A stretch of DNA of 64,000 nucleotides from a virus. Taxonomy: Duplodnaviria; Heunggongvirae; Uroviricota; Caudoviricetes. A program made the position numbers and the translations under genes. Where the stretch lies: the IMG/VR virus record IMGVR_UViG_2897358383_000002; one strand, written 5' to 3'. The notes under the pieces are model-generated. The model saw only the letters and a program-made list of their open reading frames with translations. It had not been told where the DNA came from and made no database searches. Positions 1,541-64,000 of the stretch are shown piece by piece (position 1 is the first letter of the stretch; each line of letters opens with the position of its first letter).

Positions 1541-3099
1541 ATGAAAATGACAAGTATTCAACAACGTGCAGAGCTTCATCGCCAGATCTGGCAAATTGCT
1601 AACGATGTCAGGGGTTCAGTCGATGGATGGGATTTTAAGCAGTACGTTTTGGGCGCGCTTTTTTACCGTTTTATCAGCGAAAATTTTTCCAGCTATATTG
1701 AAGCCGGTGATGACAGTATCTGTTATGCGAAACTGGATGACAGCGTAATTACTGATGACATTAAAGACGATGCCATCAAAACCAAAGGTTACTTCATCTA
1801 CCCCAGTCAGCTTTTCTGCAACGTAGCGGCGAAAGCAAATACCAATGACAGACTGAATGCGGATTTAAACAGCATCTTCGTTGCTATCGAAAGTTCTGCT
1901 TACGGTTATCCTTCAGAAGCTGACATCAAAGGTTTGTTTGCTGATTTCGATACAACCAGTAACCGCCTGGGGAATACCGTTAAGGATAAAAATGCCCGCC
2001 TGGCTGCGGTTCTGAAAGGGGTTGAAGGGTTAAAACTTGGTGACTTCCACGAACATCAGATTGACCTGTTCGGTGACGCCTATGAGTTCCTGATTTCTAA
2101 CTATGCGGCGAATGCCGGTAAGTCAGGCGGCGAGTTCTTTACACCGCAGCACGTCTCTAAGCTGATTGCACAACTGGCTATGCACGGGCAGACCCACGTT
2201 AACAAAATCTACGACCCGGCAGCAGGCTCCGGTTCGCTGTTGTTGCAGGCTAAAAAACAGTTTGATGACCATATCATCGAAGAAGGTTTTTTTGGTCAGG
2301 AAATCAACCATACGACCTATAACCTGGCGCGTATGAACATGTTTTTGCACAACATCAACTACGACAAGTTTGATATCAAGCTGGGTAATACACTGACTGA
2401 GCCGCACTTCAGAGATGAAAAACCGTTTGATGCCATCGTTTCTAACCCGCCGTATTCGGTGAAATGGATTGGCAGCGATGACCCGACGCTGATTAACGAT
2501 GAACGTTTTGCCCCGGCTGGCGTTCTGGCCCCCAAATCCAAAGCTGACTTTGCGTTTGTATTACATGCGCTGAACTATCTTTCGGCCAAAGGTCGCGCTG
2601 CGATTGTCTGCTTCCCAGGCATTTTTTACCGTGGCGGCGCGGAGCAGAAAATCCGTCAGTATCTGGTCGATAATAACTATGTCGAAACCGTGATTTCACT
2701 GGCTCCGAACCTGTTCTTTGGCACCACCATTGCCGTAAACATTCTGGTTCTGTCTAAACATAAAACGGATACCAAAGTTCAGTTTATTGACGCCAGCGAA
2801 CTGTTCAAAAAAGAGACTAACAACAACATCCTGACCGATGCCCATATCGAAAAAATTATGCAGGTATTTGCCAGCAAGGAAGATGTTGCTCATCTGGCGA
2901 AATCTGTTGCGTTTGAGACTGTTGTCGCGAATGACTATAACCTGTCGGTGAGCAGCTATGTGGAAGCGAAAGATACTCGCGAAATTATCGATATCGCTGA
3001 GCTGAATGCTGAGCTGAAAACCACGGTCAGCAAAATCGACCAGTTGCGCAAAGATATTGATGCGATTGTGGCTGAAATTGAAGGCTGCGAGGTGCAGAA

Positions 3100-3103
<4 letters not shown>
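1541..3103 (+). CDS. hsdM: Type I restriction-modification system N6-adenine methyltransferase subunit HsdM
   Basis: 520 aa; AdoMet motif [10 protein letters not shown] and catalytic NPPY ([12 protein letters not shown]); stop overlaps hsdS start. Confidence 0.9.
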
Positions 3104-4356
<1,253 letters not shown>

Positions 4357-4477
4357 TTGACCATTGCTACAGACCGGCTCACCTTAACATCCGGTCAGTA
4401 TATAGACTATTTTTTACGCGCCGGAAGTCACTCTTAACGCCCTTCCGGCTCTTGCCAGGCGGCACAAAGGATGCGCT

Positions 4478-7400
4478 ATGACTCATCAAACACACACCAT
4501 TGCTGAATCCAATAACTTTATCGTCCTTGATAAGTACATCAAAGCTGAGCAAACAAGCGACAGCTACCAGAGCGAATCGGACCTGGAACGTGAACTGATT
4601 CAGGACCTGCGGAATCAGGGTTATGAATTTATTTCCGTAAAATCACAGTCGGCAATGCTGTCTAATGTTCGGGAACAGCTTCAGAGCCTCAATGGTGTGA
4701 TGTTTAATGACAGCGAGTGGCGGCGCTTCACGGAGCAGTATCTGGACAACCCCAGCGATGGTATTCTGGATAAAACCCGTAAAATCCATATCGACTATAT
4801 CTGCGACTTTATTTTTGACGACGGGCGACTTGAGAACATCTATTTGATAGATAAAAAGAATCTCATGCGCAATAAGGTGCAGATTATCCAGCAGTTTGAA
4901 CAGACGGGTTCTCATGCTAACCGTTATGACGTCACGATCCTGGTTAATGGTTTACCGCTGGTGCAAATCGAACTAAAAAAACGCGGGGTGGCGATTCGTG
5001 AGGCTTTCAACCAGATACATCGTTACAGTAAAGAGAGTTTTAACAGCGAAAATTCCCTGTTTAAGTATCTGCAACTGTTTGTCATTTCTAACGGCACCGA
5101 TACCCGTTATTTTGCCAACACAACAAAGCGCGATAAAAACAGTTTTGACTTCACCATGAATTGGGCGAAATCAGACAACACGCTGATTAAAGACCTCAAA
5201 GACTTTACCGCTACCTTTTTCCAGAAACATACTCTGCTGAATGTTCTGGTGAACTACAGCGTTTTTGACAGTAGTCAGACGCTACTGGTGATGCGACCGT
5301 ACCAGATTGCCGCCACCGAACGAATCTTATGGAAAATCAACAGCTCCTATAAAGCGAAAAACTGGTCTAACCCCGAAAGCGGTGGCTTTATCTGGCACAC
5401 TACCGGTTCTGGTAAAACACTGACCAGCTTTAAAGCCGCGCGTCTGGCAACAGAACTGGACTTTATTGATAAAGTCTTCTTCGTGGTCGACAGGAAAGAC
5501 CTCGATTACCAGACCATGAAGGAATATCAGCGTTTTTCGCCAGACAGCGTCAACGGCTCGGAAAATACCGCAGGCCTTAAACGAAATCTGGATAAGGACG
5601 ATAACAAAATTATCGTCACTACTATTCAGAAACTCAATAACCTGATGAAAGCAGAAAGCGACCTGTCTGTATATAATCAGCAAGTGGTGTTTATATTTGA
5701 TGAATGCCACCGCAGCCAGTTTGGAGAAGCGCAGAAAAACCTGAAGAAGAAATTCAAACGCTATTATCAGTTTGGTTTTACCGGCACACCTATTTTCCCG
5801 GAAAACGCCTTAGGCTCAGAAACGACCGCCAGCGTATTTGGTCGTGAATTGCATTCGTATGTAATTACCGATGCGATTCGTGATGAAAAAGTGCTCAAAT
5901 TCAAGGTGGACTACAACGATGTGCGGCCACAGTTTAAGTCTTTAGAGACAGAAACTGACGAGAAAAAACTAAGTGCGGCTGAAAATCAGCAGGCGTTTCT
6001 TCATCCCATGCGTATACAGGAAATTACGCAATATATTCTGAATAACTTCCGCCAGAAGACCCACCGTACTTTCCCAGGTTCCAAAGGCTTTAATGCTATG
6101 TTGGCAGTGAGCAGCGTGGATGCTGCAAAAGCCTATTACGCGGCGTTTAAACGGTTACAAGAGGAAGCCGCTAATAAATCTGCAACTTATAAACCGCTGC
6201 GTGTTGCGACAATCTTCTCCTTTGCCGCTAATGAAGAACAAAATGCCATTGGTGAAATTTCCGATGAAACTTTTGATACCAGCGCAATGGACAGCAGTGC
6301 TAAAGAGTTTCTTGACGCTGCAATTCGTGAGTATAACAGCTATTTTAAAACTAACTTCAGCACCGACGGTAACGGTTTTCAGAACTACTATCGCGATTTA
6401 GCCCAACGGGTTAAAAATCAGGATATCGATCTGTTAATTGTCGTGGGGATGTTTTTAACTGGCTTCGATGCTCCAACATTGAACACGCTATTCGTCGATA
6501 AAAACCTGCGTTTTCACGGCTTGATGCAGGCATTTTCCCGCACCAACCGTATTTATGATGCAACTAAAACCTTCGGTAATATCGTCACTTTCCGGGATCT
6601 GGAACGCTCAACTATTGATGCCATAACGCTGTTTGGTGACAAAAACACCAAAAATGTGGTTTTAGAAAAGAGTTATGCAGAGTATATGGAAGGCTTTACT
6701 GATGCTGCCACTGGTGAAGCTAAGCGCGGCTTTATGGCAGTAGTTTCAGAACTGGAACAACGGTTCCCTGACCCTGCCAGTATTGAAAGTGAAAAAGAGA
6801 AGAAAGACTTCGTTAAACTGTTTGGTGAATACCTGCGTGCCGAGAACATCCTGCAAAACTATGATGAATTTGCCACGCTGAAAGCCCTGCAACAAATCGA
6901 TCTTAGCGATCCTGTTGCGGTAGAAAAATTCAAAGAAGAACATTATGTGGATGATGAAAAGTTCGCTGAATTGCAAACGATTCGTCTCCCTGCTGAACGC
7001 AAGATTCAGGATTATCGTTCTGCCTATAACGATATTCGTGACTGGCAGCGCCGCGAGAAAGAAGCTGATAAAAAAGAAAAATCAACCACTGACTGGGATG
7101 ACGTGGTTTTTGAGGTCGATTTGCTGAAGTCTCAGGAAATAAACCTGGATTATATCCTTGGACTGATTTTCGAACACAACAGACAAAATAAAGGCAAGGG
7201 CGAAATGATCGAAGAGGTCAAACGCTTAATTCGTTCAAGCCTGGGGAACCGGGCGAAAGAGGGCCTGGTGGTCGATTTTATTCAGCAAACGAACCTGGAT
7301 GATTTACCAGACAAAGCCAGTATCATTGAGGCATTCTTTACGTTTGCTCAACGCGAACAGCAACGTGAAGCAGAAGCATTGATAAAAGAAGAAAATCTCA

Positions 7401-7594
7401 ATGAAGATGCAGCAAAACGCTATATTCGCACGTCTTTAAAACGCGAATACGCCACCGAAAATGGCACAGAATTAAACGAAACATTACCAAAACTTAGTCC
7501 GTTGAATCCGCAATATAAAACGAAAAAACAGGCAGTTTTCCAGAAAATCGTCTCGTTTATTGAGAAGTTTAAAGGCGTAGGCGGAAAAATATAG
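4478..7594 (+). CDS. hsdR: Type I R-M restriction endonuclease/translocase subunit HsdR
   Basis: 1038 aa; Walker A TGSGKT, DEAD-like FDECHR, N-terminal nuclease-like region; length fits Type IC HsdR. Confidence 0.9.
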
Positions 7595-51951: not shown

Positions 51952-53381
51952 GTAAAACAACACCGACTAAAGACAGTATTCGTGCAGAGTTTGAAGAGCT
52001 TGTCGAGAAAGATTCATTCTGGTCGAAGTTTGTCGGCTCTCAATTTGTCTCGATGCTGACATTGTTTATTACCCAGATTGTCTACAGGTGCTTTCAGTAT
52101 GCCGATGCGGCGCTGGCTGAAGGCTTTATATCGACCGCGACGCGGCGTTCCTCTATCCTGGCAGCGGCAGAAACGAATAGTTACGTTGGTACCAAGCCAA
52201 CACCGTCATCGGGGATGATTGAGATCACCGCCACAAGTGAAGATGCCCCAGCGGTAATCCCCAAAAATATGCCTTTAATATCTGACGACCAGTACCCTTA
52301 CATGACTATGGATGTATGCAGGTTGGTTGACGGCACCGGTACGGTAGAAGTGGCACAGTTGGAAATCCAGGAGGTGACATATACCGTTACGGCAGCCAAA
52401 GAATTTCTGGAAGTCGTGTTATCAAAGGCTCTCACTGCTGTCTGCTATAAGCTGGAAGTATTCGTGACGACCGATGGTAAGACCACGCAGTGGTCTTCCA
52501 GCACTATGTTCCGGTTAGCCGGTAGTAAAAGCCAGGTCTACGTTGAGTTTTATAAGCCATCCGAGCAGTTGGGGGTTCGATTCGGTGATGGGCTAATTGG
52601 GCAAATACCGCCAGAAGGCTCGACCATTACACTTAAGGTATGGTGCACCAACGGAGATATAACCCTGGTTGCTGGCCAAAACCTGACGCCTGTCGATTCT
52701 GCGGCTAATTTAGCTAATTTGATTTCAGTTAAGACAACGACACCCATAACCGCAGGTACCGATGCCGAAACAACGGAGATCACACGTAATCGTGCACAAT
52801 ATTACCTTGCCTATGATGATCAGGTCGTATGGGGCGGGGACTATACGTATTTTTTGGTGCGTAACATCCCGGGACTGTCCTGGGTAAAGGCATGGGGCGA
52901 AGGCCAGCAAGAGAAATTAGATGGTGCTTATAATGTTCGGAATATCAATAAGATATTTATTTCAGGATGGCATCCAAACAAAAGCCAGTCAGAGCTTGAA
53001 GAAGTGATCCTGGCTGCCTTTAAGAAGGTGCCGAATGAGTTGAACAAGAAATTCTCGTATAAAGAGGTCAGAAAACTCCCCTTTAAGATCACTATCACTG
53101 GGCGGATATCGGCAAGCCTGACCATTGAGAACGTGACTGATGAGCTGAAGTCGGCACTGGAAACAAAATTTGGGCGTGACTCAACTTTCTTTGATCCGAA
53201 CCGTGTCGGCAAGTACATCCTAATCAAGAAAAAAGACGTTTGGGCATTTATCGAAACGCTGGGTTATTTCCGCGACTTTTATCTGGAATTTGTCGAGTGG
53301 AATGAGTCCAACGGCTTTTACGATTTCGTTTATCTGGATACAGAAAACTCCACCTTTAATATTTCGTATGAGGAGGAGTGA
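51948..53381 (+). CDS. baseplate protein
   Basis: 477-aa ORF in the tail operon. Confidence 0.5.
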   Translation: MSKTTPTKDSIRAEFEELVEKDSFWSKFVGSQFVSMLTLFITQIVYRCFQYADAALAEGFISTATRRSSILAAAETNSYVGTKPTPSSGMIEITATSEDAPAVIPKNMPLISDDQYPYMTMDVCRLVDGTGTVEVAQLEIQEVTYTVTAAKEFLEVVLSKALTAVCYKLEVFVTTDGKTTQWSSSTMFRLAGSKSQVYVEFYKPSEQLGVRFGDGLIGQIPPEGSTITLKVWCTNGDITLVAGQNLTPVDSAANLANLISVKTTTPITAGTDAETTEITRNRAQYYLAYDDQVVWGGDYTYFLVRNIPGLSWVKAWGEGQQEKLDGAYNVRNINKIFISGWHPNKSQSELEEVILAAFKKVPNELNKKFSYKEVRKLPFKITITGRISASLTIENVTDELKSALETKFGRDSTFFDPNRVGKYILIKKKDVWAFIETLGYFRDFYLEFVEWNESNGFYDFVYLDTENSTFNISYEEE

Positions 53382-54217
53382 TGCAGCGTTCCTGGTTTAA
53401 TAACCGGCTTACATCAGCTAAGCAAAAGTCATTACTTTATAAATCATTGGCTGATTTGGTTCAGTCAATGATGGACACCTTTGTTGACCCATGGTTGGAG
53501 CGAATTACCAACCGGAAGTCTATTTTCTCCATGAGCAAGGAGGATCTGGAGACTAGGACAAATGAACTTGGCCAGTTTTTTACTATCAGAACGTCGAATT
53601 CATCTTCCGTTCCGATGTTGTTACAACAGCGGTTTGATGAGATCCATTTTAAGGGTACTGAACGCCCTATAAACCAGACAATTTATCGCGAATTTAACGG
53701 TATATCGGTTTTATGGGATCCAATATATGCTCCGGTGGACTTTGAACGTCATCCCTATGGCACGGTCCTGATTCCAGAAAGCACACTGGAAACCACCGGC
53801 GGCACATTCGGCGAGATGTTTCTGACTTCCAGAGGAATGATCAGTATTCCCATAAACGACCTGGCCCGGACAATGGGTATTACTGGAACGATAGATCAGT
53901 CCGCAATTACAGAAGAAATTCTCAGAAAGTTTAATCAGTTCGTAAAGCCTCTACTGCCACTGCATATAGTGTTTGATGGGCTTACGCTCTATTTGTCGGT
54001 TGTTGTAAATGAACAGGCCGACATGATCACTTTGAATGAGATTTCTGATACCGAAAAAGCATTCTGCTGGTTTGAAACTTCGGATACAACTTCGCTTACT
54101 GAAGTTACGTCGATTAACGCCCCGATCACTGCAACGCCGGGCGGCACTATTGTGAAAGCAACGCCTACGTTTGATCGCACCCGCGCAGATGATTTGCTGT
54201 TGGATAGCGATGCGTGA
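53378..54217 (+). CDS. baseplate/tail-fibre-associated protein
   Basis: 279-aa ORF; a partial inverted copy recurs at the window end. Confidence 0.5.
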   Translation: MMQRSWFNNRLTSAKQKSLLYKSLADLVQSMMDTFVDPWLERITNRKSIFSMSKEDLETRTNELGQFFTIRTSNSSSVPMLLQQRFDEIHFKGTERPINQTIYREFNGISVLWDPIYAPVDFERHPYGTVLIPESTLETTGGTFGEMFLTSRGMISIPINDLARTMGITGTIDQSAITEEILRKFNQFVKPLLPLHIVFDGLTLYLSVVVNEQADMITLNEISDTEKAFCWFETSDTTSLTEVTSINAPITATPGGTIVKATPTFDRTRADDLLLDSDA

Positions 54218-54295
54218 CAATCACCCCGTCCGCAGGGCGGGGTGACAAGTTACTTATCTTACAATGAGGCTTCACAACATTGATTAGGGAAAATC

Positions 54296-54730
54296 ATGTC
54301 TGACGTCTCAACAAACCTCTATAAGAGTCAGTTGTTGGACTATTACTATCAGCGGCGCGCTGAATCGTCCATTAACAAAGGCTCTCGATTTTTAATCAGC
54401 AAGGCCGTTTTCGGTACCAGTTCACTGGTTACTAAGAAAGGAGATGGCACTTATGAGATTGGAGAACTGCCAAAGGCTTTCGATCTGGCAGAACTGACCA
54501 GTCAATTTTGCACCATCAACCTCGTCCCAACCTACTCAGGCGGGATAATTACTGTCCGAATGGACCTTGATCAAAGTCAGTTGCAGGAAGGGAAAAACTA
54601 CCCATTCAACACTCTGGTTGTTCTGGATAACGAGAATAAGCCAATCGCCATTATTTGTGTCCAGGAAGACTCGCTGTATGTGGGCAAAACATATACCGCA
54701 GTTATGGCCATAAACTCGACTACAGCATAA
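54296..54730 (+). CDS. tail-fibre-associated protein
   Basis: 144-aa ORF directly upstream of the tail-fibre gene; identical inverted copy at 63068..63502. Confidence 0.5.
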   Translation: MSDVSTNLYKSQLLDYYYQRRAESSINKGSRFLISKAVFGTSSLVTKKGDGTYEIGELPKAFDLAELTSQFCTINLVPTYSGGIITVRMDLDQSQLQEGKNYPFNTLVVLDNENKPIAIICVQEDSLYVGKTYTAVMAINSTTA

Positions 54731-54741
54731 GGATATGCTTG

Positions 54742-57666
54742 ATGAATGACGTTACAGTTGTTACATCGGTTACTTACCCATCACCCGAGTCGTTGGCTCT
54801 GGTGGCTGATGTGCAATACCACGAACCATATCTGTCAGCCGCTCTAAACCGAAAATTCAGGGGAATTGTTGACCCGGGATTTTATGCTGGTTTCTTGCCT
54901 AAGCCTGGCGGTGGGATGAACCTGTTAATCACCTCAGTGGATGGAGATAAAACCGCTGGCGCGGCGTCAGTGGATATTGGTGAATTCTACCAGGTAACTA
55001 TTCAGCATCGTAAGGATATCTCTCTTGCACTTAACGCAGGCAAGAAATATGCAATTGTGCTGAAGGGAAGATACCTTCTTGGAGAAGATACCTATCAGGT
55101 GAATACCGCGTCACATATTCATGCAGCTGAATTTGTTGCCAGAACCTATACCGATTCATATCAGTTAGGTGATGGGGAACTGCTGGTTTGTACGGTGAAT
55201 ATCCCTGCTGGCGTATCTACCATTACTCAAGAGATGATTGATACATCCGAGCGTATCAACCGCACGATCGGCATTGATATTTCAGACTCTGTAACCAGTA
55301 CCAGAAGTGATGTTGCTGCGAGTTCGCTGGCAGTTAAAAAAGCCTACGATCTGGCGAAAAGCAAGTATACGGCGCAGGATGCAAGCACAACGCAAAAGGG
55401 ATTAGTTCAGCTCAGTAGTGCCACTAACAGTACGTCCGAAGTGCTGGCCGCCACACCGAAAGCTGTCAAGGCTGCATATGACCTGGCTAACGGGAAGTAT
55501 ACAGCCCAGGATGCAACCACGACACAAAAAGGGATAGTTCAGCTCAGTAGCGACACCAACAGCACTTCTGAAACATTAGCTGCAACGCCAAAAGCGGTTA
55601 AAGCTGCATACGATCTAGCAGCCGGAAAGGCACCATCCAGTCATACACATCCCTGGAATCAGATCACTGGTGTGCCAACAGCTTCATTGACAGCGAAAGG
55701 CATCACTCAGCTCAGTAGTGCCACTAACAGCACGTCTGAAGTGCTGGCCGCCACACCGAAAGCTGTCAAGGCTGCATATGACCTGGCTAACGGGAAGTAT
55801 ACAGCCCAGGATGCAACCACGACACAAAAAGGGATAGTTCAGCTCAGTAGCGACACCAACAGCACTTCTGAAACATTAGCTGCAACGCCAAAAGCGGTTA
55901 AAGCTGCATACGATCTAGCAGCCGGAAAGGCACCATCCAGTCATACACATCCCTGGAATCAGATCACTGGTGTGCCAACAGCTTCATTGACAGCGAAAGG
56001 CATCACTCAGCTCAGTAGTGCCACTAACAGCACGTCTGAAGTGCTGGCCGCCACACCGAAAGCTGTCAAGGCTGCATATGACCTGGCTAACGGGAAGTAT
56101 ACAGCCCAGGATGCAACCACGACACAAAAAGGGATAGTTCAGCTCAGTAGCGACACCAACAGCACTTCTGAAACATTAGCTGCAACGCCAAAAGCGGTTA
56201 AAGCTGCATACGATCTAGCAGCCGAAAAAGCACCATCCAGTCATACACATCCCTGGAATCAGATTACTGGTGTGCCAACAGCTTCATTGACAGCGAAAGG
56301 CATCACTCAGCTCAGTAGTGCCACTAACAGCACGTCTGAAGTGCTGGCCGCCACACCGAAAGCTGTCAAGGCTGCATATGACCTGGCTAACGGGAAGTAT
56401 ACAGCCCAGGATGCAACCACGACACAAAAAGGGATAGTTCAGCTCAGTAGCGACACCAACAGCACTTCTGAAACATTAGCTGCAACGCCAAAAGCGGTTA
56501 AAGCTGCATACGATCTAGCAGCCGGAAAGGCACCATCCAGTCATACACATCCCTGGAATCAGATCACTGGTGTGCCAACAGCTTCATTGACAGCGAAAGG
56601 CATCACTCAGCTCAGTAGTGCCACTAACAGCACGTCTGAAGTGCTGGCCGCCACACCGAAAGCTGTCAAGGCTGCATATGACCTGGCTAACGGGAAGTAT
56701 ACAGCCCAGGATGCAACCACGACACAAAAAGGGATAGTTCAGCTCAGTAGCGACACCAACAGCACTTCTGAAACATTAGCTGCAACGCCAAAAGCAGTTA
56801 AAGCTGCATACGATCTAGCAGCCGGAAAGGCACCATCCAGTCATACACATCCCTGGAATCAGATCACTGGTGTGCCAACAGCTTCATTGACAGCGAAAGG
56901 CATCACTCAGCTCAGTAGTGCCACTAACAGCACGTCTGAAGTGCTGGCCGCTACACCGAAAGCTGTCAAGGCTGCATATGATTTGGCTAATGGAAAGCAA
57001 GCGGCAGACGCTACGCTCACTGCTCTAGCGGCACTAGCTACCGCAGCAGATAAACTCCCTTATTTCACAGGGGTTGATCGTGCCGCGTTAACTGCACTGA
57101 CAAGTGTTGGACGTGCAATTCTTAGTAAGCCCAGTATTCAGAGCGTTCTTAATTACCTTGGTTTAGGGGAAGGCTCGGCGCTGCCCGTTGGTGTACCTGT
57201 TCCATGGCCCTCAGCCACACCACCAACGGGGTGGCTGAAATGTAACGGAGCAGCATTTTCTTCTGAAAAGTACCCAAATCTGGCAAAGGTTTACCCAACG
57301 TTAAAATTACCTGATTTACGCGGTGAGTTTATCCGTGGTTGGGATGATTCGAGAGGGATTGATACAGGGCGTTCATTGCTAAGTGGTCAGACTGCAACAT
57401 TTATTCGTACAGCTTTGCAGGATTATTACGGTGTCGATCTGACTACTAATGTCAAAGTAGGTATCGCTTATGCTACTGCTGATTCTGTTATAACTGTTGG
57501 AAACCCTGCTAATCCTAAAGCAGGAGATAATAGCGATTATGTTCCAGCATCATCAGATAACTCCATAACAGGCACTCAAAGGACGGCAGAGGATAATTTT
57601 ACCGGGGCATGGATATCAATGCGCCCCCGCAACGTTGCTTTTAATTACATCGTAAGGGCAGCATGA
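54742..57666 (+). CDS. tail fibre protein (constant part fused to currently expressed variable C-terminal cassette 1)
   Basis: 974 aa from ATG at 54742 (RBS AAGGA); five 100-aa tandem repeats; C-terminus ends with conserved RPRN(I/V)AFNYIVRAA shared by all cassettes. Confidence 0.85.
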   Translation: MNDVTVVTSVTYPSPESLALVADVQYHEPYLSAALNRKFRGIVDPGFYAGFLPKPGGGMNLLITSVDGDKTAGAASVDIGEFYQVTIQHRKDISLALNAGKKYAIVLKGRYLLGEDTYQVNTASHIHAAEFVARTYTDSYQLGDGELLVCTVNIPAGVSTITQEMIDTSERINRTIGIDISDSVTSTRSDVAASSLAVKKAYDLAKSKYTAQDASTTQKGLVQLSSATNSTSEVLAATPKAVKAAYDLANGKYTAQDATTTQKGIVQLSSDTNSTSETLAATPKAVKAAYDLAAGKAPSSHTHPWNQITGVPTASLTAKGITQLSSATNSTSEVLAATPKAVKAAYDLANGKYTAQDATTTQKGIVQLSSDTNSTSETLAATPKAVKAAYDLAAGKAPSSHTHPWNQITGVPTASLTAKGITQLSSATNSTSEVLAATPKAVKAAYDLANGKYTAQDATTTQKGIVQLSSDTNSTSETLAATPKAVKAAYDLAAEKAPSSHTHPWNQITGVPTASLTAKGITQLSSATNSTSEVLAATPKAVKAAYDLANGKYTAQDATTTQKGIVQLSSDTNSTSETLAATPKAVKAAYDLAAGKAPSSHTHPWNQITGVPTASLTAKGITQLSSATNSTSEVLAATPKAVKAAYDLANGKYTAQDATTTQKGIVQLSSDTNSTSETLAATPKAVKAAYDLAAGKAPSSHTHPWNQITGVPTASLTAKGITQLSSATNSTSEVLAATPKAVKAAYDLANGKQAADATLTALAALATAADKLPYFTGVDRAALTALTSVGRAILSKPSIQSVLNYLGLGEGSALPVGVPVPWPSATPPTGWLKCNGAAFSSEKYPNLAKVYPTLKLPDLRGEFIRGWDDSRGIDTGRSLLSGQTATFIRTALQDYYGVDLTTNVKVGIAYATADSVITVGNPANPKAGDNSDYVPASSDNSITGTQRTAEDNFTGAWISMRPRNVAFNYIVRAA
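55321..57000 (+). repeat. 300-bp tandem repeats (about 5.5 units, each with two diverged 150-bp sub-repeats) inside the tail-fibre gene
   Basis: Near-identical units starting at 55621, 55921, 56221, 56521, 56821 with a diverged unit before. Confidence 0.9.
57145..57170 (+). other. candidate invertase crossover site A (hix/gix-like), junction of constant tail-fibre part and cassette 1
   Basis: Start of the homology block shared by all cassettes; attaccTTGGTTTaggggaagg resembles hix/gix half-sites. Confidence 0.4.
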
Positions 57667-57683
57667 AAACGTTGGTTTGGGGG
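57658..57683 (+). other. candidate crossover site B
   Basis: gcatGAAAACGTTGGTTTgggggaagg, imperfect dyad resembling hix (TTCTTGAAAACCAAGGTTTTTGATAA as recalled). Confidence 0.4.
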
Positions 57684-58105
57684 AAGGCTCTGCACTGCCT
57701 GTTGGTGTGCCCGTTCCGTGGCCCTTAGAAACACCACCAACGGGCTGGCTAAAATGTAACGGAGCAGCATTTTCTTCTGAAATGTATCCCAAACTGGCAA
57801 AAGCCTACCCCACCAATAAATTACCGGATTTACGCGGTGAATTTATCCGTGGCTGGGATGATGGGCGCGGGATTGATGCGGGACGTACCCTGCTTTCAGG
57901 GCAGGATGGTACAAGTTTTTCTCATTACGGAGGTAATTTCGACATTGGGTCTGGTCATTCAATCAATAACTATGACCAAATTGTTTCTAACCAACCAGGA
58001 TTTTCCCGTTTTTCATTTGCAGGGCCTTCACGAGGTGATGGGGTTAATTATGTAACCATTCGTCCTCGTAACATTGCGTTTAATTATATCGTAAGGGCGG
58101 CATGA
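57677..58105 (+). CDS. silent alternative tail-fibre C-terminal cassette 2
   Basis: Begins with conserved GEGSALPVGVPVPWP...PTGWLKCNGAAFSS and ends ...RPRNIAFNYIVRAA; distinct variable middle. Confidence 0.6.
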   Translation: MGEGSALPVGVPVPWPLETPPTGWLKCNGAAFSSEMYPKLAKAYPTNKLPDLRGEFIRGWDDGRGIDAGRTLLSGQDGTSFSHYGGNFDIGSGHSINNYDQIVSNQPGFSRFSFAGPSRGDGVNYVTIRPRNIAFNYIVRAA

Positions 58106-58123
58106 AAACGTTGGTTTGGGGGA
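58098..58123 (+). other. candidate crossover site C
   Basis: Same catgaaaacgttggtttggggg motif as site B. Confidence 0.4.
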
Positions 58124-58574
58124 AGGCTCTGCACTGCCCGTTGGCGTGCCCGTTCCGTGGCCATCAGCCACACCTCCAACGGGGTGGCTGAAATGCAATG
58201 GCGCAGCATTTTCTTCTGAAAAGTACCCAAATCTGGCAAAGGTTTACCCAACGTTAAAATTACCTGATTTACGCGGTGAGTTTATCCGTGGTTGGGATGA
58301 TGGGCGAGGTGTGGATGCGGGAAGGGTCATCTTAAGCATACAGGGGTGGTTAACAGGAAGTCATTATCATAATATTCGGTCATGGGACGCGTGGGATAAC
58401 ACGGTATTGGTGCCAAATGACAGAGGGGGGGATAGCCTGTTGTCGACAGATAACGCCGTCCAAGAAGGAGCGATTAATGGTAAATTTACCAGTCAATACA
58501 GAACGGAGTTATCTGGGGGGAATGAAACCCGCCCACGTAACATTGCCTTCAATTATATTGTGAGAGCAGCATAA
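58116..58574 (+). CDS. silent alternative tail-fibre C-terminal cassette 3
   Basis: Same conserved ends as cassette 2 with a different variable core. Confidence 0.6.
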   Translation: MGEGSALPVGVPVPWPSATPPTGWLKCNGAAFSSEKYPNLAKVYPTLKLPDLRGEFIRGWDDGRGVDAGRVILSIQGWLTGSHYHNIRSWDAWDNTVLVPNDRGGDSLLSTDNAVQEGAINGKFTSQYRTELSGGNETRPRNIAFNYIVRAA

Positions 58575-59185
58575 TGGATAATGCGATATTAAATAGCGAA
58601 CTTATAGCCATACAGGCAGGAAACATTATCGTTTATAACTATGATGGTGGTAATCGGGAATATATTTCTGCATCAACTGAATATCTTGCTGTTGGCGTTG
58701 GTATTCCGGCACATTCTTGTTTGGATGCTCCAGGCTCACATAAAGCAGGTTATGCGATTCTCCGTTCAGAGGATTTAAGTTCATGGGAGTATGTGCCAGA
58801 TCATCGTGGCGAAACTGTCTATAGCATTGACACAGGGAATCCCGAAGAAATCACGGTGTTGGGTGACTATCCGGAAAATACAACCACTATCGCCCCGCTA
58901 ACACCATACGACAAATGGGATGGAGAGAAATGGGTGGTTGATACTGAGGCTCAACATAGTGCAGCTGTAGAGGCAGCAGAAACAAAACGTCAGTCATTGA
59001 TTGATACTGCGATGGATTCCATTAGTCTGATTCAGTTGAAATTACGGGCTGGACGGAAGTTGACGCAGGCAGAAACCACGCAGCTTAACTCCGTGCTAGA
59101 TTATATAGACGAGCTGAACGCGATGGATTTAACCACGGCACCAGATCTCAACTGGCCTGAAAAACAACTTTCTACAGCCAGTTGA
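58574..59185 (+). CDS. tail fibre assembly chaperone (Tfa/U-like)
   Basis: 203 aa; typical Tfa N-terminal region; located inside the cassette region. Confidence 0.75.
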   Translation: MDNAILNSELIAIQAGNIIVYNYDGGNREYISASTEYLAVGVGIPAHSCLDAPGSHKAGYAILRSEDLSSWEYVPDHRGETVYSIDTGNPEEITVLGDYPENTTTIAPLTPYDKWDGEKWVVDTEAQHSAAVEAAETKRQSLIDTAMDSISLIQLKLRAGRKLTQAETTQLNSVLDYIDELNAMDLTTAPDLNWPEKQLSTAS

Positions 59186-59190
59186 TATAA

Positions 59191-59688
59191 TTAATCCGCC
59201 CTCACAATATAATTAAATGCAATATTACGAGGGCGGGTTTCTAAGCCAGCAGTACCTAAATTAGCTACGGACTGTTTATATGTTTTAAAAGTTCCATAAT
59301 TAGGGGCTGGCAATCCTGCATCGCTTGTGTTCCCCCATCTGATAACTCCCGTATTACCACTAGTAGCCCATGCCTCGTCAAAGTAGAAATTAATTGAGCT
59401 GTCAGTTGCTACGGTTGATTTTGACGGTAATCCGTGAGCATGATCCTCCGTTGCATATCCTTGCTCGCTTAAAATAGAGCGACCTGGATCAATCCCGCGC
59501 CCGTCATCCCAGCCACGAATGAACTCACCACGTAAATCAGGCAATTTATTTGTCGGGTAAGCCTTTGCCAGATTTGGGTACTTTTCAGAAGAAAATGCTG
59601 CACCATTGCATTTCAGCCACCCCGTTGGAGGTGTGGCTGAAGGCCACGGAACAGGGACACCAACAGGTAATGCAGAGCCTTCTCCCAA
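59191..59688 (-). CDS. silent alternative tail-fibre C-terminal cassette 4 (inverted orientation)
   Basis: Intact 165-aa ORF with conserved N- and C-terminal cassette ends on the minus strand. Confidence 0.6.
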   Translation of the reverse strand: MGEGSALPVGVPVPWPSATPPTGWLKCNGAAFSSEKYPNLAKAYPTNKLPDLRGEFIRGWDDGRGIDPGRSILSEQGYATEDHAHGLPSKSTVATDSSINFYFDEAWATSGNTGVIRWGNTSDAGLPAPNYGTFKTYKQSVANLGTAGLETRPRNIAFNYIVRAD

Positions 59689-59706
59689 ACCAACGTTTTT
59701 ATGCCG
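59681..59706 (-). other. candidate crossover site D (inverted)
   Basis: cccaaaccaacgtttttatg, reverse complement of the site B/C motif. Confidence 0.4.
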
Positions 59707-60135
59707 CCCTTACGATGTAATTAAATGCGATATTTCGTGGACGGGTTACTCCCCATATTACCTCCCTCGTGAATGAAGTGTCGGTGATGATCAAATCCTC
59801 TGTATTGTCATCAGATCCATCCTTGGTGTATGTTTTTTTGAAATGTCCCAGCTCCCATTCATCTTTTGTGTCGTAACCATCATGCTACAAAATATGTCGA
59901 TGCTTTCAGCATTCCTGTCTGAATGCCAATAAAGCACGTCCCGCATCCACCCCGCGCCCATCATCCCAGCCGGAATAAATTCTCCCGTAATCCGGTAATT
60001 TATTGGTGGGTAGCTTTGCCAGATTTGGGTACTTTCAGAAGAAAATGCTGCACCATTGCATTTCAGCCACCCCGTTGGAGGTGTGCTGAGGGCCACGGAA
60101 CGGGACGCCAACAGGCATGCAGAGCCTTCCCCCAA
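59707..60135 (-). pseudogene. degenerate alternative tail-fibre cassette 5 (frameshifted)
   Basis: Conserved cassette ends recognisable across three frames; several indels relative to the other cassettes. Confidence 0.45.
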
Positions 60136-60153
60136 ACCAACGTTTTTTATGCT
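60128..60153 (-). other. candidate crossover site E (inverted)
   Basis: cccccaaaccaacgttttttatg. Confidence 0.4.
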
Positions 60154-63056
60154 GCCCTTACGATGTAATTAAAAGCAACGTTGCGGGGGCGCATTGATAT
60201 CCATGCCCCGGTAAAAATTATCCTCTGCCGTCCTTTGAGTGCCTGTTATGGAGTTCTGATGATGGAACATAATCGCTATTATCTCCTGCTTTAGGATTAG
60301 CAGGGTTTCCAACAGTTATAACAGAATCAGCAGTAGCATAAGCGATACCTACTTTGACATTAGTAGTCAGATCGACACCGTAATAATCCTGCAAAGCTGT
60401 ACGAATAAATGTTGCAGTCTGACCACTTAGCAATGAACGCCCTGTATCAATCCCTCTCGAATCATCCCAACCACGGATAAACTCACCGCGTAAATCAGGT
60501 AATTTTAACGTTGGGTAAACCTTTGCCAGATTTGGGTACTTTTCAGAAGAAAATGCTGCGCCGTTGCATTTCAGCCACCCCGTTGGAGGTGTGGCTGAAT
60601 GGGCCTGGAACAGGGTACGCCAAACGGGCCAGTGCAGAGCCTTCCCAAACCAAGGTAATTAAGAACGCTCTGAATACTGGGCTTACTAAGAATTGCACGT
60701 CCAACACTTGTCAGTGCAGTTAACGCACCCCTGTGAAATAAGGGAGTTTATCTGCTGCGGTAGCTAGTGCCGCTAGAGCAGTGAGCGTAGCGTCTGCCGC
60801 TTGCTTTCCATTAGCCAAATCATATGCCAGCCTTGACAGCTTTCGGTGTAGCGGCCAGCACTTCAGACGTGCTGTTAGTGGCACTACTGAGCTGAGTGAT
60901 GCCTTTCGCTGTCAATGAAGCTGTTGGCACACCAGTGATCTGATTCCAGGGATGTGTATGACTGGATGGTGCCTTTCCGGCTGCTAGATCGTATGCAGCT
61001 TTAACTGCTTTTGGCGTTGCAGCTAATGTTTCAGAAGTGCTGTTGGTGTCGCTACTGAGCTGAACTATCCCTTTTTGTGTCGTGGTTGCATCCTGGGCTG
61101 TATACTTCCCGTTAGCCAGGTCATATGCAGCCTTGACAGCTTTCGGTGTGGCGGCCAGCACTTCAGACGTGCTGTTAGTGGCACTACTGAGCTGAGTGAT
61201 GCCTTTCGCTGTCAATGAAGCTGTTGGCACACCAGTGATCTGATTCCAGGGATGTGTATGACTGGATGGTGCCTTTCCGGCTGCTAGATCGTATGCAGCT
61301 TTAACCGCTTTTGGCGTTGCAGCTAATGTTTCAGAAGTGCTGTTGGTGTCGCTACTGAGCTGAACTATCCCTTTTTGTGTCGTGGTTGCATCCTGGGCTG
61401 TATACTTCCCGTTAGCCAGGTCATATGCAGCCTTGACAGCTTTCGGTGTGGCGGCCAGCACTTCAGACGTGCTGTTAGTGGCACTACTGAGCTGAGTGAT
61501 GCCTTTCGCTGTCAATGAAGCTGTTGGCACACCAGTAATCTGATTCCAGGGATGTGTATGACTGGATGGTGCTTTTTCGGCTGCTAGATCGTATGCAGCT
61601 TTAACCGCTTTTGGCGTTGCAGCTAATGTTTCAGAAGTGCTGTTGGTGTCGCTACTGAGCTGAACTATCCCTTTTTGTGTCGTGGTTGCATCCTGGGCTG
61701 TATACTTCCCGTTAGCCAGGTCATATGCAGCCTTGACAGCTTTCGTGTGGCGGCCAGCACTTCAGACGTGCTGTTAGTGGCACTACTGAGCTGAGTGATG
61801 CCTTTCGCTGTCAATGAAGCTGTTGGCACACCAGTGATCTGATTCCAGGGATGTGTATGACTGATGGTGCCTTTCCGGCTGCTAGATCGTATGCAGCTTT
61901 AACCGCTTTTGGCGTTGCAGCTAATGTTTCAGAAGTGCTGTTGGTGTCGCTACTGAGCTGAACTATCCCTTTTTGTGTCGTGGTTGCATCCTGGGCTGTA
62001 TACTTCCCGTTAGCCAGGTCATATGCAGCCTTGACAGCTTTTCGTGTGGCGGCCAGCACTTCAGACGTGCTGTTAGTGGCACTCTGAGCTGAGTGATGCC
62101 TTTCGCTGTCAATGAAGCTGTTGGCACACCAGTGATCTGATTCCAGGGATGTGTATGACTGGATGGTGCCTTTCCGGCTGCTAGATCGTATGCAGCTTTA
62201 ACCGCTTTGGCGTTGCAGCTAATGTTTCAGAAGTGCTGTTGGTGTCGCTACTGAGCTGAACTATCCCTTTTTGTGTCGTGGTTGCATCCTGGGCTGTATA
62301 CTTCCCGTTAGCCAGGTCATATGCAGCCTTGACAGCTTTCGGTGTGGCGGCCAGCACTTCGGACGTACTGTTAGTGGCACTACTGAGCTGAACTAATCCC
62401 TTTTGCGTTGTGCTTGCATCCTGCGCCGTATACTTGCTTTTCGCCAGATCGTAGGCTTTTTTAACTGCCAGCGAACTCGCAGCAACATCACTTCTGGTAC
62501 TGGTTACAGAGTCTGAAATATCAATGCCGATCGTGCGGTTGATACGCTCGGATGTATCAATCATCTCTTGAGTAATGGTAGATACGCCAGCAGGGATATT
62601 CACCGTACAAACCAGCAGTTCCCCATCACCTAACTGATATGAATCGGTATAGGTTCTGGCAACAAATTCAGCTGCATGAATATGTGACGCGGTATTCACC
62701 TGATAGGTATCTTCTCCAAGAAGGTATCTTCCCTTCAGCACAATTGCATATTTCTTGCCTGCGTTAAGTGCAAGAGAGATATCCTTACGATGCTGAATAG
62801 TTACCTGGTAGAATTCACCAATATCCACTGACGCCGCGCCAGCGGTTTTATCTCCATCCACTGAGGTGATTAACAGGTTCATCCCACCGCCAGGCTTAGG
62901 CAAGAAACCAGCATAAAATCCCGGGTCAACAATTCCCCTGAATTTTCGGTTTAGAGCGGCTGACAGATATGGTTCGTGGTATTGCACATCAGCCACCAGA
63001 GCCAACGACTCGGGTGATGGGTAAGTAACCGATGTAACAACTGTAACGTCATTCAT
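60138..63056 (-). pseudogene. inverted near-copy of the tail-fibre gene (constant part + cassette), reading frame broken into at least 4 ORFs by small indels
   Basis: Minus-strand ORFs 60218..60433, 60820..61530, 61811..62059, 62181..63143 match successive parts of the plus-strand tail fibre; single-base indels seen by direct comparison. Confidence 0.6.
60641..60666 (-). other. candidate crossover site F (inverted mirror of site A)
   Basis: cccaaaccaaggtaattaag is the reverse complement of the site A motif. Confidence 0.35.
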
Positions 63057-63067
63057 CAAGCATATCC

Positions 63068-63502
63068 TTATGCTGTAGTCGAGTTTATGGCCATAACTGC
63101 GGTATATGTTTTGCCCACATACAGCGAGTCTTCCTGGACACAAATAATGGCGATTGGCTTATTCTCGTTATCCAGAACAACCAGAGTGTTGAATGGGTAG
63201 TTTTTCCCTTCCTGCAACTGACTTTGATCAAGGTCCATTCGGACAGTAATTATCCCGCCTGAGTAGGTTGGGACGAGGTTGATGGTGCAAAATTGACTGG
63301 TCAGTTCTGCCAGATCGAAAGCCTTTGGCAGTTCTCCAATCTCATAAGTGCCATCTCCTTTCTTAGTAACCAGTGAACTGGTACCGAAAACGGCCTTGCT
63401 GATTAAAAATCGAGAGCCTTTGTTAATGGACGATTCAGCGCGCCGCTGATAGTAATAGTCCAACAACTGACTCTTATAGAGGTTTGTTGAGACGTCAGAC
63501 AT
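63068..63502 (-). CDS. inverted duplicate of the 144-aa tail-fibre-associated gene
   Basis: Encoded protein identical to that of 54296..54730. Confidence 0.55.
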   Translation of the reverse strand: MSDVSTNLYKSQLLDYYYQRRAESSINKGSRFLISKAVFGTSSLVTKKGDGTYEIGELPKAFDLAELTSQFCTINLVPTYSGGIITVRMDLDQSQLQEGKNYPFNTLVVLDNENKPIAIICVQEDSLYVGKTYTAVMAINSTTA

Positions 63503-63576
63503 GATTTTCCCTAATCAATGTTGTGAAGCCTCATTGTAAGATAAGTAACTTGTCACCCCGCCCTGCGGACGGGGTG

Positions 63577-64000
63577 ATTGTCACGCATCGCTATCCAACA
63601 GCAAATCATCTGCGCGGTGCGATCAAACGTAGGTTGCTTTCACAATAGTGCCGCCCGGCGTTGCAGTGATCGGGGCGTTAATCGACGTAACTTCAGTAAG
63701 CGAAGTTGTATCCGAAGTTTCAAACCAGCAGAATGCTTTTTCGGTATCAGAAATCTCATTCAAAGTGATCATGTCGGCCTGTTCATTTACAACAACCGAC
63801 AAATAGAGCGTAAGCCCATCAAACACTATATGCAGTGGCAGTAGAGGCTTTACGAACTGATTAAACTTTCTGAGAATTTCTTCTGTAATTGCGGACTGAT
63901 CTATCGTTCCAGTAATACCCATTGTCCGGGCCAGGTCGTTTATGGGAATACTGATCATTCCTCTGGAAGTCAGAAACATCTCGCCGAATGTGCCGCCGGT
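63577..64000 (-). pseudogene. inverted partial copy of the 279-aa baseplate/tail gene (frameshifted near its 3' end; runs off window)
   Basis: Minus ORF 63623..63979 matches the C-terminal half of the 53378..54217 product until single-base deletions change the frame. Confidence 0.45.

What the first reader, a model, noticed from the sequence alone, without database searches (positions are those of the whole stretch)
53378..64000. About 4 kb inverted duplication of the tail-fibre region with frame-breaking indels: real degenerate copy or assembly artefact
The region 60.1-64.0 kb (minus strand) is an inverted near-copy of 53.4-57.7 kb (plus strand). The 144-aa upstream gene is copied perfectly, but the tail-fibre copy and the 279-aa gene copy carry single-base indels, concentrated in the 300-bp tandem repeats and near cassette junctions. 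The cassette content between the arms is not a mirror image, so a simple fold-back is excluded. A genuine duplication would give two long inverted repeats able to flip the intervening segment; alternatively, population heterogeneity from an active inversion system may have confused a long-read assembly.
Basis: seen in the sequence. Interest (0 to 1): 0.6.

Follow-up and report, generated by a model that had tools for sequence, protein, structure and literature searches.

The report
Assembly artefact at invertible tail-fibre segment
The "inverted duplicate" of the tail-fibre genes is almost certainly not a real second copy: it is an error-laden stretch at the very end of a public plasmid record, formed when reads from two orientations of a known flip-flop tail-fibre switch were joined into one contig.

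Summary
The inverted repeat is really in the sequence. Arm A (53795-57666, +) matches arm B (64000-60147, -).

The window is GenBank CP027133.1, positions 32001-96000. This is a P1/p15B-like E. coli phage-plasmid of 97,167 bp. Arm B continues for another 1,167 nt to the last base of the record, so the full arms are about 5.05 kb.

Window 1-59740 matches an independent RefSeq plasmid with 7 mismatches and no gap. From 59746 onward the quality collapses:
- 59746-60146 carries 28 deletion events in 440 nt.
- Arm B carries 26 indel events and 9 substitutions against arm A.
- None of these indels occurs in any of 519 related plasmids.

Both arms stop exactly at two oppositely oriented crossover cores (AAACCAACGTTT, 57667-57678 and 60134-60145). 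These cores bound a 2.5-kb block of tail-fibre cassettes. Near-identical plasmids show this block and its neighbours in other orders and orientations. The window therefore reads left flank, segment, reverse-complemented left flank. That is what results from joining the main isomer to the reverse strand of the flipped isomer.

The invertase that follows the segment in relatives is absent from the part of the record I could read.

Verdict: a contig-end misassembly (confidence 0.85) over a known Min/Cin-type switch. Interest is low.

The parts
53378..54217 (+). gp16 (P1 tail-tube/baseplate gene 16), authentic copy
   Evidence: Relatives carry PF26903 Phage_P1_Gp16 on the identical gene. The stretch 53378-54730 is 100% identical to many plasmids.
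54296..54730 (+). R (tail-fibre protein R, 144 aa), authentic copy
   Evidence: PF26881 Phage_P1_tail_fiber_R in relatives. Annotated R in P1 and P7.
54742..57666 (+). S tail-fibre gene (974 aa): constant part Sc fused to cassette Sv1. Contains 5.3 copies of a 300-nt tandem repeat at 55407-56997.
   Evidence: Pfam Phage_fiber_2 (E 1e-224) and Collar. Tandem repeat found. The identical 974-aa protein occurs on 8 public contigs.
57153..57164 (-). Crossover-site core at the Sc|Sv1 junction (AAACCAAGGTAA)
57667..57678 (-). Crossover-site core (AAACCAACGTTT) at the 5' end of cassette Sv2. This is the left boundary of the invertible sub-segment and the inner end of arm A.
   Evidence: 5 matches against 0.3 expected. 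Arm boundary.
57677..58105 (+). Cassette Sv2 (alternative S C-terminus, 142 aa)
   Evidence: Pfam Collar, E 7e-15.
58116..58574 (+). Cassette Sv3 (152 aa). Its crossover core lies at 58106-58117.
   Evidence: Pfam Collar and S_tail_recep_bd. Core.
58574..59185 (+). U-type tail-fibre assembly protein (203 aa)
   Evidence: Pfam Caudo_TAP, E 3e-30.
59191..59688 (-). Cassette Sv4' (165 aa). Its crossover core lies at 59687-59698.
   Evidence: Pfam Collar. Core.
59746..60146 (-). Cassette Sv6' in very low-quality sequence: 28 deletion events (39 nt), 4 mismatches and no insertion against the relative's intact 158-aa cassette. The crossover core at 60134-60145 is the right boundary of the invertible sub-segment.
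   Evidence: Intact versions are seen in L002, L003 and L005.
60147..64000 (-). Arm B: a reverse-complement, error-laden copy of the left flank (Sv1', Sc', R', part of gp16'). In the source record it continues 1,167 nt further, through gp16' and into bplA', to the last base.
   Evidence: Against arm A it has 17 deletion events, 9 insertion events and 9 substitutions. Its indels occur in none of 519 related plasmids.
60647..60658 (+). Copy of the Sc|Sv1 crossover core within arm B. The next ~90 nt (60560-60636) carry 6 substitutions, all toward the Sv3 sequence, plus several indels.

Best explanation
The locus is the tail-fibre operon of a P1/p15B-like phage-plasmid. It has a multi-cassette invertible region of the Min/Cin type: a constant S gene followed by start-less alternative C-terminal cassettes and an assembly gene. 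Each cassette is headed by a crossover site.

In the sequenced culture the cassette block bounded by the cores at 57667-57678 and 60134-60145 existed in both orientations. Call the left flank L and the invertase side R. Reads of the main isomer read L - segment(+) - R. Reads of the flipped isomer, taken on the opposite strand, read R' - segment(+) - L'.

The assembler overlapped the two sets through the shared 2.5-kb segment. It extended the end of the contig as L - segment - L'. The extra arm had little read support, so its consensus stayed poor. It sits at the end of the deposited record.

Shown here:
- the identity of the source record and the position of the arm at its end;
- the collapse in sequence quality;
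- the arms ending at the crossover cores;
- alternative isomers in near-identical plasmids;
- the absence of the invertase from record positions 32001-97167.

Inferred: that the join was made by the assembler from a mixed population. No reads could be examined.
For: 1. Source. The window equals CP027133.1 32001-96000. A 1,000-nt stretch across the noisy region is identical, and the coordinates and the 3' continuation fit. Arm B runs to the record's last base, so no outer junction exists.

2. Quality. Window 1-36404 is 100.000% identical, and 36405-59740 is 99.97% identical (7 mismatches, 0 gaps), to RefSeq plasmid NZ_JBQJRN010000004.1. Beyond that point, 59746-60146 has 28 deletion events in 440 nt, and arm B has 26 indel events and 9 substitutions in 5,047 nt.

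3. Private errors. Arm A 53795-55800 is 100.0% identical to at least 6 PLSDB plasmids. The arm B equivalent reaches at best 99.7% in 519 records.

4. Arm ends. The arms stop at 57666 and 60147, abutting oppositely oriented AAACCAACGTTT cores.

5. Natural junction. The arm-B junction Sv6'-core-Sv1' is the reverse complement of the natural Sc.Sv1-core-Sv6 adjacency in JADDLL010000003.1, which encodes the identical S protein. The Sv4'-Sv6' adjacency occurs in NZ_JBQJRT010000006.1. In that record, viewed in the orientation that matches the window's cassettes, the invertase lies on the left and Sc-R-gp16 lie inverted on the right.

6. Missing genes. No recombinase, holin, lydB or darA sequence occurs in the window plus tail. 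In relatives the recombinase follows Sv6' directly.

7. Copy number. gp16-R is single-copy in about 97% of related records (470 records with 486 places; 467 records with 478 places).

8. Recurrent trouble. Sibling assemblies produce separate 2.5-2.6-kb contigs made only of this cassette block.
Against: - No reads, coverage or quality values could be examined, so the mis-join itself is inferred.
- I could not read record positions 1-32000. Whether the invertase and lysis genes are truly missing from the record is therefore unknown. A predicted truncated darA product at the record start was not found.
- The sequencing technology is unknown.
- The noise starts at 59746, inside the segment, rather than exactly at its right boundary.
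- The relative's Sv5' cassette is absent from the window. Explaining this needs either a different main isomer or a collapsed repeat.
Confidence: 0.85

Rival explanations
1. Rare but real L-segment-L' molecules. The invertase acts between crossover sites in two different units of a plasmid dimer, or replication switches template at the inverted cassettes. Either would produce head-to-head dimers, and a few long reads from such molecules would have seeded the contig end.
For: The arms end exactly at oppositely oriented crossover cores. That fits site-specific recombination as well as a mis-join does. The poor consensus fits very low read support. Sequence alone cannot separate this reading from an assembler join.
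Against: It is not needed, because a mixture of two monomer isomers gives the same contig. From general knowledge, Gin/Hin/Cin-family invertases act in cis on one supercoiled molecule, so the event would also require a plasmid dimer. Related records carry one gp16-R copy in about 97% of cases. Even if true, this would be a minority by-product and not the plasmid's genome structure.
Confidence: 0.09
2. A genuine, stable inverted duplication of about 5 kb in this plasmid. It would have replaced the invertase and lysis region, and the second copy would be decaying into pseudogenes.
For: The deposited record contains it. The rest of the record (32,000 nt) is 4,496 nt shorter than the rest of the relative (36,496 nt). 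That would fit a deletion beside the duplication (arithmetic).
Against: - The differences are indel-dominated: 26 indel events to 9 substitutions in the arm, and 28 deletions to 4 mismatches in Sv6'. The same plasmid differs from a relative by 7 substitutions and 0 indels over 59.7 kb.
- A 9% deletion load in 400 nt next to 99.3%-identical arms is not a pattern of natural decay.
- The errors are private and lie only in arm B.
- The homology runs off the end of the record with no outer junction.
- Six of the 9 substitutions form a hybrid with another cassette.
Confidence: 0.04
3. A fold-back (palindromic) chimeric long read created during library preparation or sequencing and incorporated at the contig end.
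For: An inverted copy at a contig end with a poor consensus is typical of such reads.
Against: A fold-back is a mirror image about one point. Here 2.5 kb of non-palindromic, correctly ordered cassettes lie between the arms. The arms end exactly at two recombination cores. The junction is a natural isomer junction.
Confidence: 0.02

Closest known systems
Min multiple-inversion system of plasmid p15B (Sandmeier et al. 1990 PNAS 87:1109, cited in PMC5903667; Min invertase X62121 cited in PMC6906374)
   Same: Both sit on a P1-related IncY-type phage-plasmid backbone. Both have a constant S tail-fibre gene followed by several start-less C-terminal cassettes in both orientations, each headed by a crossover site, plus a tail-fibre assembly gene. 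In relatives a serine recombinase (PF00239 + PF02796) sits directly beside the block. Different cassette orders occur in near-identical plasmids.
   Different: This record lacks the recombinase next to the segment and instead repeats the left flank in reverse, which I attribute to misassembly. I did not compare the cassettes or the recombinase with the p15B sequence itself. That p15B has six crossover sites is from my own knowledge.
Cin/C-segment of phage P1 and Gin/G-segment of phage Mu
   Same: The same principle applies: a serine invertase flips the 3' part of the tail-fibre gene S together with U to switch host range (PMC6906374). The gp16-R-Sc region is 96.3% identical to P1.
   Different: P1 and Mu have two crossover sites and two alternative cassette sets. 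Here at least five cassettes and six cores are visible in the window, two of the cores being the duplicated Sc junction.
Assembly problems at shufflons and other invertible segments, for example the R64/IncI shufflon
   Same: A clonal culture holds several isomers. Assemblers then give collapsed, chimeric or extra contigs. Sibling assemblies of this plasmid lineage yield separate 2.5-2.6-kb cassette-only contigs.
   Different: The outcome here is a specific terminal flank-segment-flank' chimera kept in a deposited record. That shufflons cause assembly problems is from my own knowledge. My literature search returned no paper that I read on this point.
Palindromic (fold-back) chimeric long reads
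   Same: Inverted sequence at a contig end.
   Different: The interior is not mirror-symmetric and is bounded by recombination sites.

Membership tests
Min/Cin/Gin-type invertible tail-fibre switch (p15B Min multi-cassette type) | Serine invertase gene directly adjacent to the invertible block | tested here: inconclusive
   There is no recombinase anywhere in the window plus the 1,167-nt tail (tblastn). In plasmids whose flanks are 99.97-100% identical, a 190-aa PF00239 + PF02796 recombinase follows Sv6' directly. Record positions 1-32000 could not be read.
Min/Cin/Gin-type invertible tail-fibre switch (p15B Min multi-cassette type) | Several crossover sites with a shared core, in both orientations, at the 5' end of each cassette and at the end of the constant part | tested here: met
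   AAACCAACGTTT occurs at 57667(-), 58106(-), 59687(+) and 60134(+), with 0.3 matches expected by chance. The variant AAACCAAGGTAA occurs at the Sc junction, at 57153(-) and in its copy at 60647(+).
Min/Cin/Gin-type invertible tail-fibre switch (p15B Min multi-cassette type) | Cassettes encode alternative C-termini of the tail-fibre protein, and a tail-fibre assembly gene lies in the block | tested here: met
   The Collar domain is found in the S C-terminus and in each cassette, and Caudo_TAP in the 203-aa gene. The cassettes share 72-93% identical 5' parts.
Min/Cin/Gin-type invertible tail-fibre switch (p15B Min multi-cassette type) | Alternative isomers found in otherwise near-identical genomes | tested here: met
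   L002/L004, L003 and L005 carry the same cassettes in different orders and orientations.
Genuine segmental inverted duplication | Both copies of equal sequence quality, with differences following a natural mutation spectrum | tested here: not met
   Arm A has 0 indels against relatives. Arm B has 26 indel events and 9 substitutions, all of the indels private to this record.
Genuine segmental inverted duplication | A defined outer boundary where the copy joins unique sequence | tested here: not met
   The homology continues to the last base of the record.
Isomer-mixture misassembly (flank - invertible segment - flank') | Arms end at the recombination sites that bound the invertible segment, and the junction equals a natural isomer junction | tested here: met
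Isomer-mixture misassembly (flank - invertible segment - flank') | Low read support for the extra arm, and no single read spanning both arms | not testable with these tools
   No reads or quality values are available. The collapse in consensus quality from 59746 to the record end is indirect support.
Fold-back (palindromic) chimeric read | Mirror symmetry about a single turning point | tested here: not met
   2,479 nt of non-palindromic cassettes (57667-60145) lie between the arms.

The most novel reading that the evidence does not exclude
The flank-segment-flank' arrangement existed in real molecules. These would be head-to-head plasmid dimers made when the Min-type invertase recombines crossover sites that belong to two different units of a dimeric phage-plasmid. 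Multi-cassette tail-fibre switches would then also generate palindromic dimers as a by-product.
Probability: 0.08. Interest if true: 0.35.

Novelty: not a real feature. Interest (0 to 1): 0.08.

Why it matters
The matter is mainly one of data hygiene. The last ~5.4 kb of CP027133.1 (record positions 91746-97167) should not be read as a second tail-fibre locus, as pseudogenes, or as long inverted repeats able to flip DNA. Surveys of gene content or of repeats that include this record would pick up false frameshifted S, gp16 and bplA fragments.

On the positive side, the artefact is indirect evidence that the Min-type cassette switch was actively inverting in the sequenced culture. It also shows that this region is a recurrent trouble spot in assemblies of P1-like phage-plasmids.

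Tried and rejected
**Leads that went nowhere**
- CP027133.1 is absent from PLSDB and from the RefSeq complete E. coli set. I therefore could not read its annotation or its first 32 kb.
- To reach the record start I searched with the relative's 995-aa DdrB-like protein. Only a 98% cluster representative came back, which is unusable for an exact look-up.
- I then looked up seven predicted truncated DarA products, assuming the record starts at the collinear position (relative 68404). None is in the collection. The record start remains unknown.
- Literature searches for the accession and the assembly found nothing. A search for neighbouring accessions found only a passing mention of CP027130.1 as 'punnamed1'.
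- The p15B Min paper (PMC53420) and the P1 genome paper (PMC523184) are not held.

**Explanations rejected**
- A simple fold-back, because the interior is not a mirror image.
- A genuine decaying duplicate, because of the error spectrum, the asymmetry between arms, the private indels and the lack of an outer junction.
- Extension of the arms to 57886 / 59936. That stretch is only the conserved 5' part of different cassettes. The window's 59746-60146 matches the relative's Sv6' cassette apart from deletions, and matches Sv2 less well.

**Technical note.** Only the first locus fetched since the previous script call appeared as a file for Python. L006 was therefore read with get_sequence and pasted in.
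Full report
**1. The observation.** The inverted repeat is real.
- BLAST of the reverse complement of 59001-64000 against 53001-59300 gives one alignment: 64000-59936 (-) to 53795-57886 (+), 98.3% over 4,101 columns, with 23 mismatches and 30 gap openings.
- The repeat finder reports exact blocks of 1,412 nt (54181-55592 / 62206-63617) and 918 nt.
- The 144-aa gene copy (63068-63502) lies inside the perfect block.
- Between 53795 and 57075 the two arms differ at only 9 places, almost all of them 1-2-nt deletions in the second arm.

**2. What the locus is.** The window is a P1/p15B-like phage-plasmid of E. coli. The gp16-R-Sc stretch is 96.3% identical to P1 and 96.5% to P7, and hundreds of E. 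coli plasmids match it. Pfam gives the following layout:
- S, 54742-57666: Phage_fiber_2 repeats plus a C-terminal Collar domain.
- Three further Collar-domain cassettes on the + strand or the - strand: 57677-58105, 58116-58574 and 59191-59688(-).
- A Caudo_TAP tail-fibre assembly gene, 58574-59185.
- Broken cassette fragments at 59791-60433(-).

In relatives the order is gp16, R, S(Sc.Sv1), Sv2, Sv3, U, Sv4', Sv5', Sv6'. A 190-aa serine recombinase (Resolvase + HTH_7) follows, then the holins, lydB and darA. This is the architecture of the Cin/C-segment switch of P1 (PMC6906374), in the multi-cassette form described for the Min system of p15B (Sandmeier et al. 1990, cited in PMC5903667; the details of p15B are from my own knowledge).

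**3. Where the window comes from.** An exact look-up of the 974-aa S protein returned 8 contigs. One of them, GenBank CP027133.1 (assembly GCA_002968735.1, 97,167 bp), shows the same broken reverse-strand fragments after the cassettes.
- The coordinates fit window = record 32001-96000.
- The record's sequence continues the window's last 119 nt.
- A 1,000-nt stretch across the noisiest part (59701-60700) is identical in window and record.
- The record ends only 1,167 nt after the window, and that tail is still the reverse complement of gp16 and bplA.
- The full arms are 52620-57666 and 65167-60147 in window coordinates, about 5.05 kb. Arm B has no outer junction: it runs to the last base of the record.
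- The record is absent from PLSDB and from the RefSeq complete E. coli set.

**4. Quality collapses exactly where the odd structure begins.** I compared the window with RefSeq plasmid NZ_JBQJRN010000004.1 (96,236 bp, an unrelated submission).

| Stretch | Compared with | Differences |
|---|---|---|
| Window 1-36404 | relative | 100.000% identical |
| Window 36405-59740 | relative | 99.97%: 7 mismatches, 0 gaps |
| Window 59746-60146 | relative's intact Sv6' cassette | 28 deletion events (39 nt), 4 mismatches, 0 insertions in 440 nt |
| Arm B, 60147-65167 | arm A | 17 deletion events, 9 insertion events, 9 substitutions in 5,047 nt |

Arm A's stretch 53795-55800 is 100.0% identical to at least six PLSDB plasmids. 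The corresponding arm B stretch reaches at best 99.7% against the same places in 519 records, so its indels are private. A genuine duplicate would be expected to differ mainly by substitutions, and both copies would be of equal quality. Neither holds here.

**5. The arms end at recombination sites.**
- The core AAACCAACGTTT occurs at 57667-57678(-), 58106-58117(-), 59687-59698(+) and 60134-60145(+). That is one per cassette 5' end, against 0.3 matches expected by chance.
- The variant AAACCAAGGTAA marks the Sc|Sv1 junction at 57153-57164 and its copy at 60647-60658.
- Arm A stops at 57666 and arm B starts at 60147. Both abut oppositely oriented cores.
- The apparent extension of the arms to 57886 / 59936 is only the conserved 5' part of two different cassettes. 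Window 59746-60146 matches the relative's Sv6' apart from deletions, and matches Sv2 less well.
- The junction Sv6'-core-Sv1' is a natural one. JADDLL010000003.1, which encodes the identical S protein, has Sc.Sv1-core-Sv6 on the forward strand. The window's version differs from it only by the deletions.
- NZ_JBQJRT010000006.1 has the Sv4'-Sv6' adjacency. Viewed in the orientation that matches the window's cassettes, its recombinase lies on the left and Sc-R-gp16 lie inverted on the right.

**6. The model.** Let L be bplA-gp16-R-Sc.Sv1 and R be the invertase side.
- The main isomer reads L | Sv2 Sv3 U Sv4' Sv6' | ... R.
- One inversion between the cores at 57667 and 60134 gives L | Sv6 Sv4 U' Sv3' Sv2' | ... 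R.
- The opposite strand of that flipped isomer reads R' ... | Sv2 Sv3 U Sv4' Sv6' | L'.
- Reads of the two isomers share the 2.5-kb segment in the same orientation, so an overlap assembler can walk L - segment - L'. This is exactly the window.
- The extra arm would then have little or ambiguous read support. That explains the poor consensus, and also the hybrid stretch next to the Sc core in arm B, where all six substitutions point toward the Sv3 sequence.
- That the join was made by the assembler is inferred. No reads were available.

**7. What is missing.**
- Neither the recombinase (tblastn) nor any of the relative's 63001-72016 region (darA, lydB, holins, recombinase) occurs in the window plus tail.
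- The record has 32,000 nt left for what occupies 36,496 nt in the relative. At least 4.5 kb is therefore absent, unless the unseen part differs in other ways (arithmetic).
- I could not read record positions 1-32000.

**8. Context.**
- gp16-R is single-copy in nearly all related records: 470 records with 486 places in PLSDB, and 467 records with 478 places in RefSeq E. coli.
- Sibling assemblies of this plasmid lineage include separate 2.5-2.6-kb contigs made only of the cassette block (NZ_JBQJRM010000005.1 and NZ_JBQJRS010000019.1). The latter matches window 57637-59731 at 99.6%. The region is thus a recurrent assembly trouble spot.

**9. Rivals.**
- Rare real head-to-head dimers, made by the invertase acting within a plasmid dimer, would give the same sequence. 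Sequence alone cannot exclude them (about 9%).
- A stable genuine duplication is contradicted by the error spectrum, the asymmetry between arms, the private indels and the missing outer junction (about 4%).
- A fold-back read is contradicted by the non-mirror interior bounded by recombination cores (about 2%).

**10. Verdict.** The underlying biology, a Min/Cin-type multi-cassette tail-fibre switch in a P1-like phage-plasmid, is already known. The duplicate is not a real feature of the plasmid genome (confidence about 0.85). Interest is low.

Noticed in passing
window 1-59740: The window is 100.000% identical (1-36404) and 99.97% identical (36405-59740) to plasmid unnamed3 of E. coli 2022N21-074, a blood isolate from Taiwan (NZ_JBQJRN010000004.1). 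The same phage-plasmid therefore appears, with no indels, in an unrelated submission.
   Followed up: partly
window 60560-60636 (partner 57177-57249): All six substitutions between the arms just downstream of the Sc crossover core change arm B toward the Sv3 cassette sequence, giving a hybrid Sv3/Sv1 5' end. This could be a consensus of mixed isomer reads or real gene conversion between cassettes.
   Followed up: partly
NZ_JBQJRS010000019.1 (L010, 2,526 bp) and NZ_JBQJRM010000005.1 (2,595 bp): Two RefSeq 'complete' assemblies of sibling strains contain separate small contigs that consist only of the tail-fibre cassette block. These are probably alternative isomers output as extra contigs.
   Followed up: partly
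window 55407-56997: The S gene holds 5.3 copies of a 300-nt tandem repeat (98-99% identical). Each unit is made of two diverged Phage_fiber_2 sub-repeats spaced 132/168 nt apart. S length varies among relatives: 559 aa in NZ_CP104791.1, 854 aa in NZ_JBQJRT010000006.1 and 974 aa here. This suggests changes in repeat number.
   Followed up: no
window 1541-7594: A type I restriction-modification system (hsdM, hsdS, hsdR) sits next to phd/doc. From my own recollection, P1 itself carries the type III res/mod genes at this position. The annotation is taken from the identical relative.
   Followed up: no
proteins P0005 and P0007: Public assemblies contain DdrB-like proteins fused to an SLT domain or to tail-fibre repeats (1,084 aa and 1,300 aa, on short contigs). 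These may be further misassemblies or rearrangements in P1-like contigs.
   Followed up: no
window 59738-59746 versus L002 8739-9190: The relative's Sv5' pseudo-cassette (~450 nt) is missing between Sv4' and Sv6' in the window. Another relative (L003) also has Sv4' directly followed by Sv6', so this may be a different isomer rather than a deletion.
   Followed up: partly
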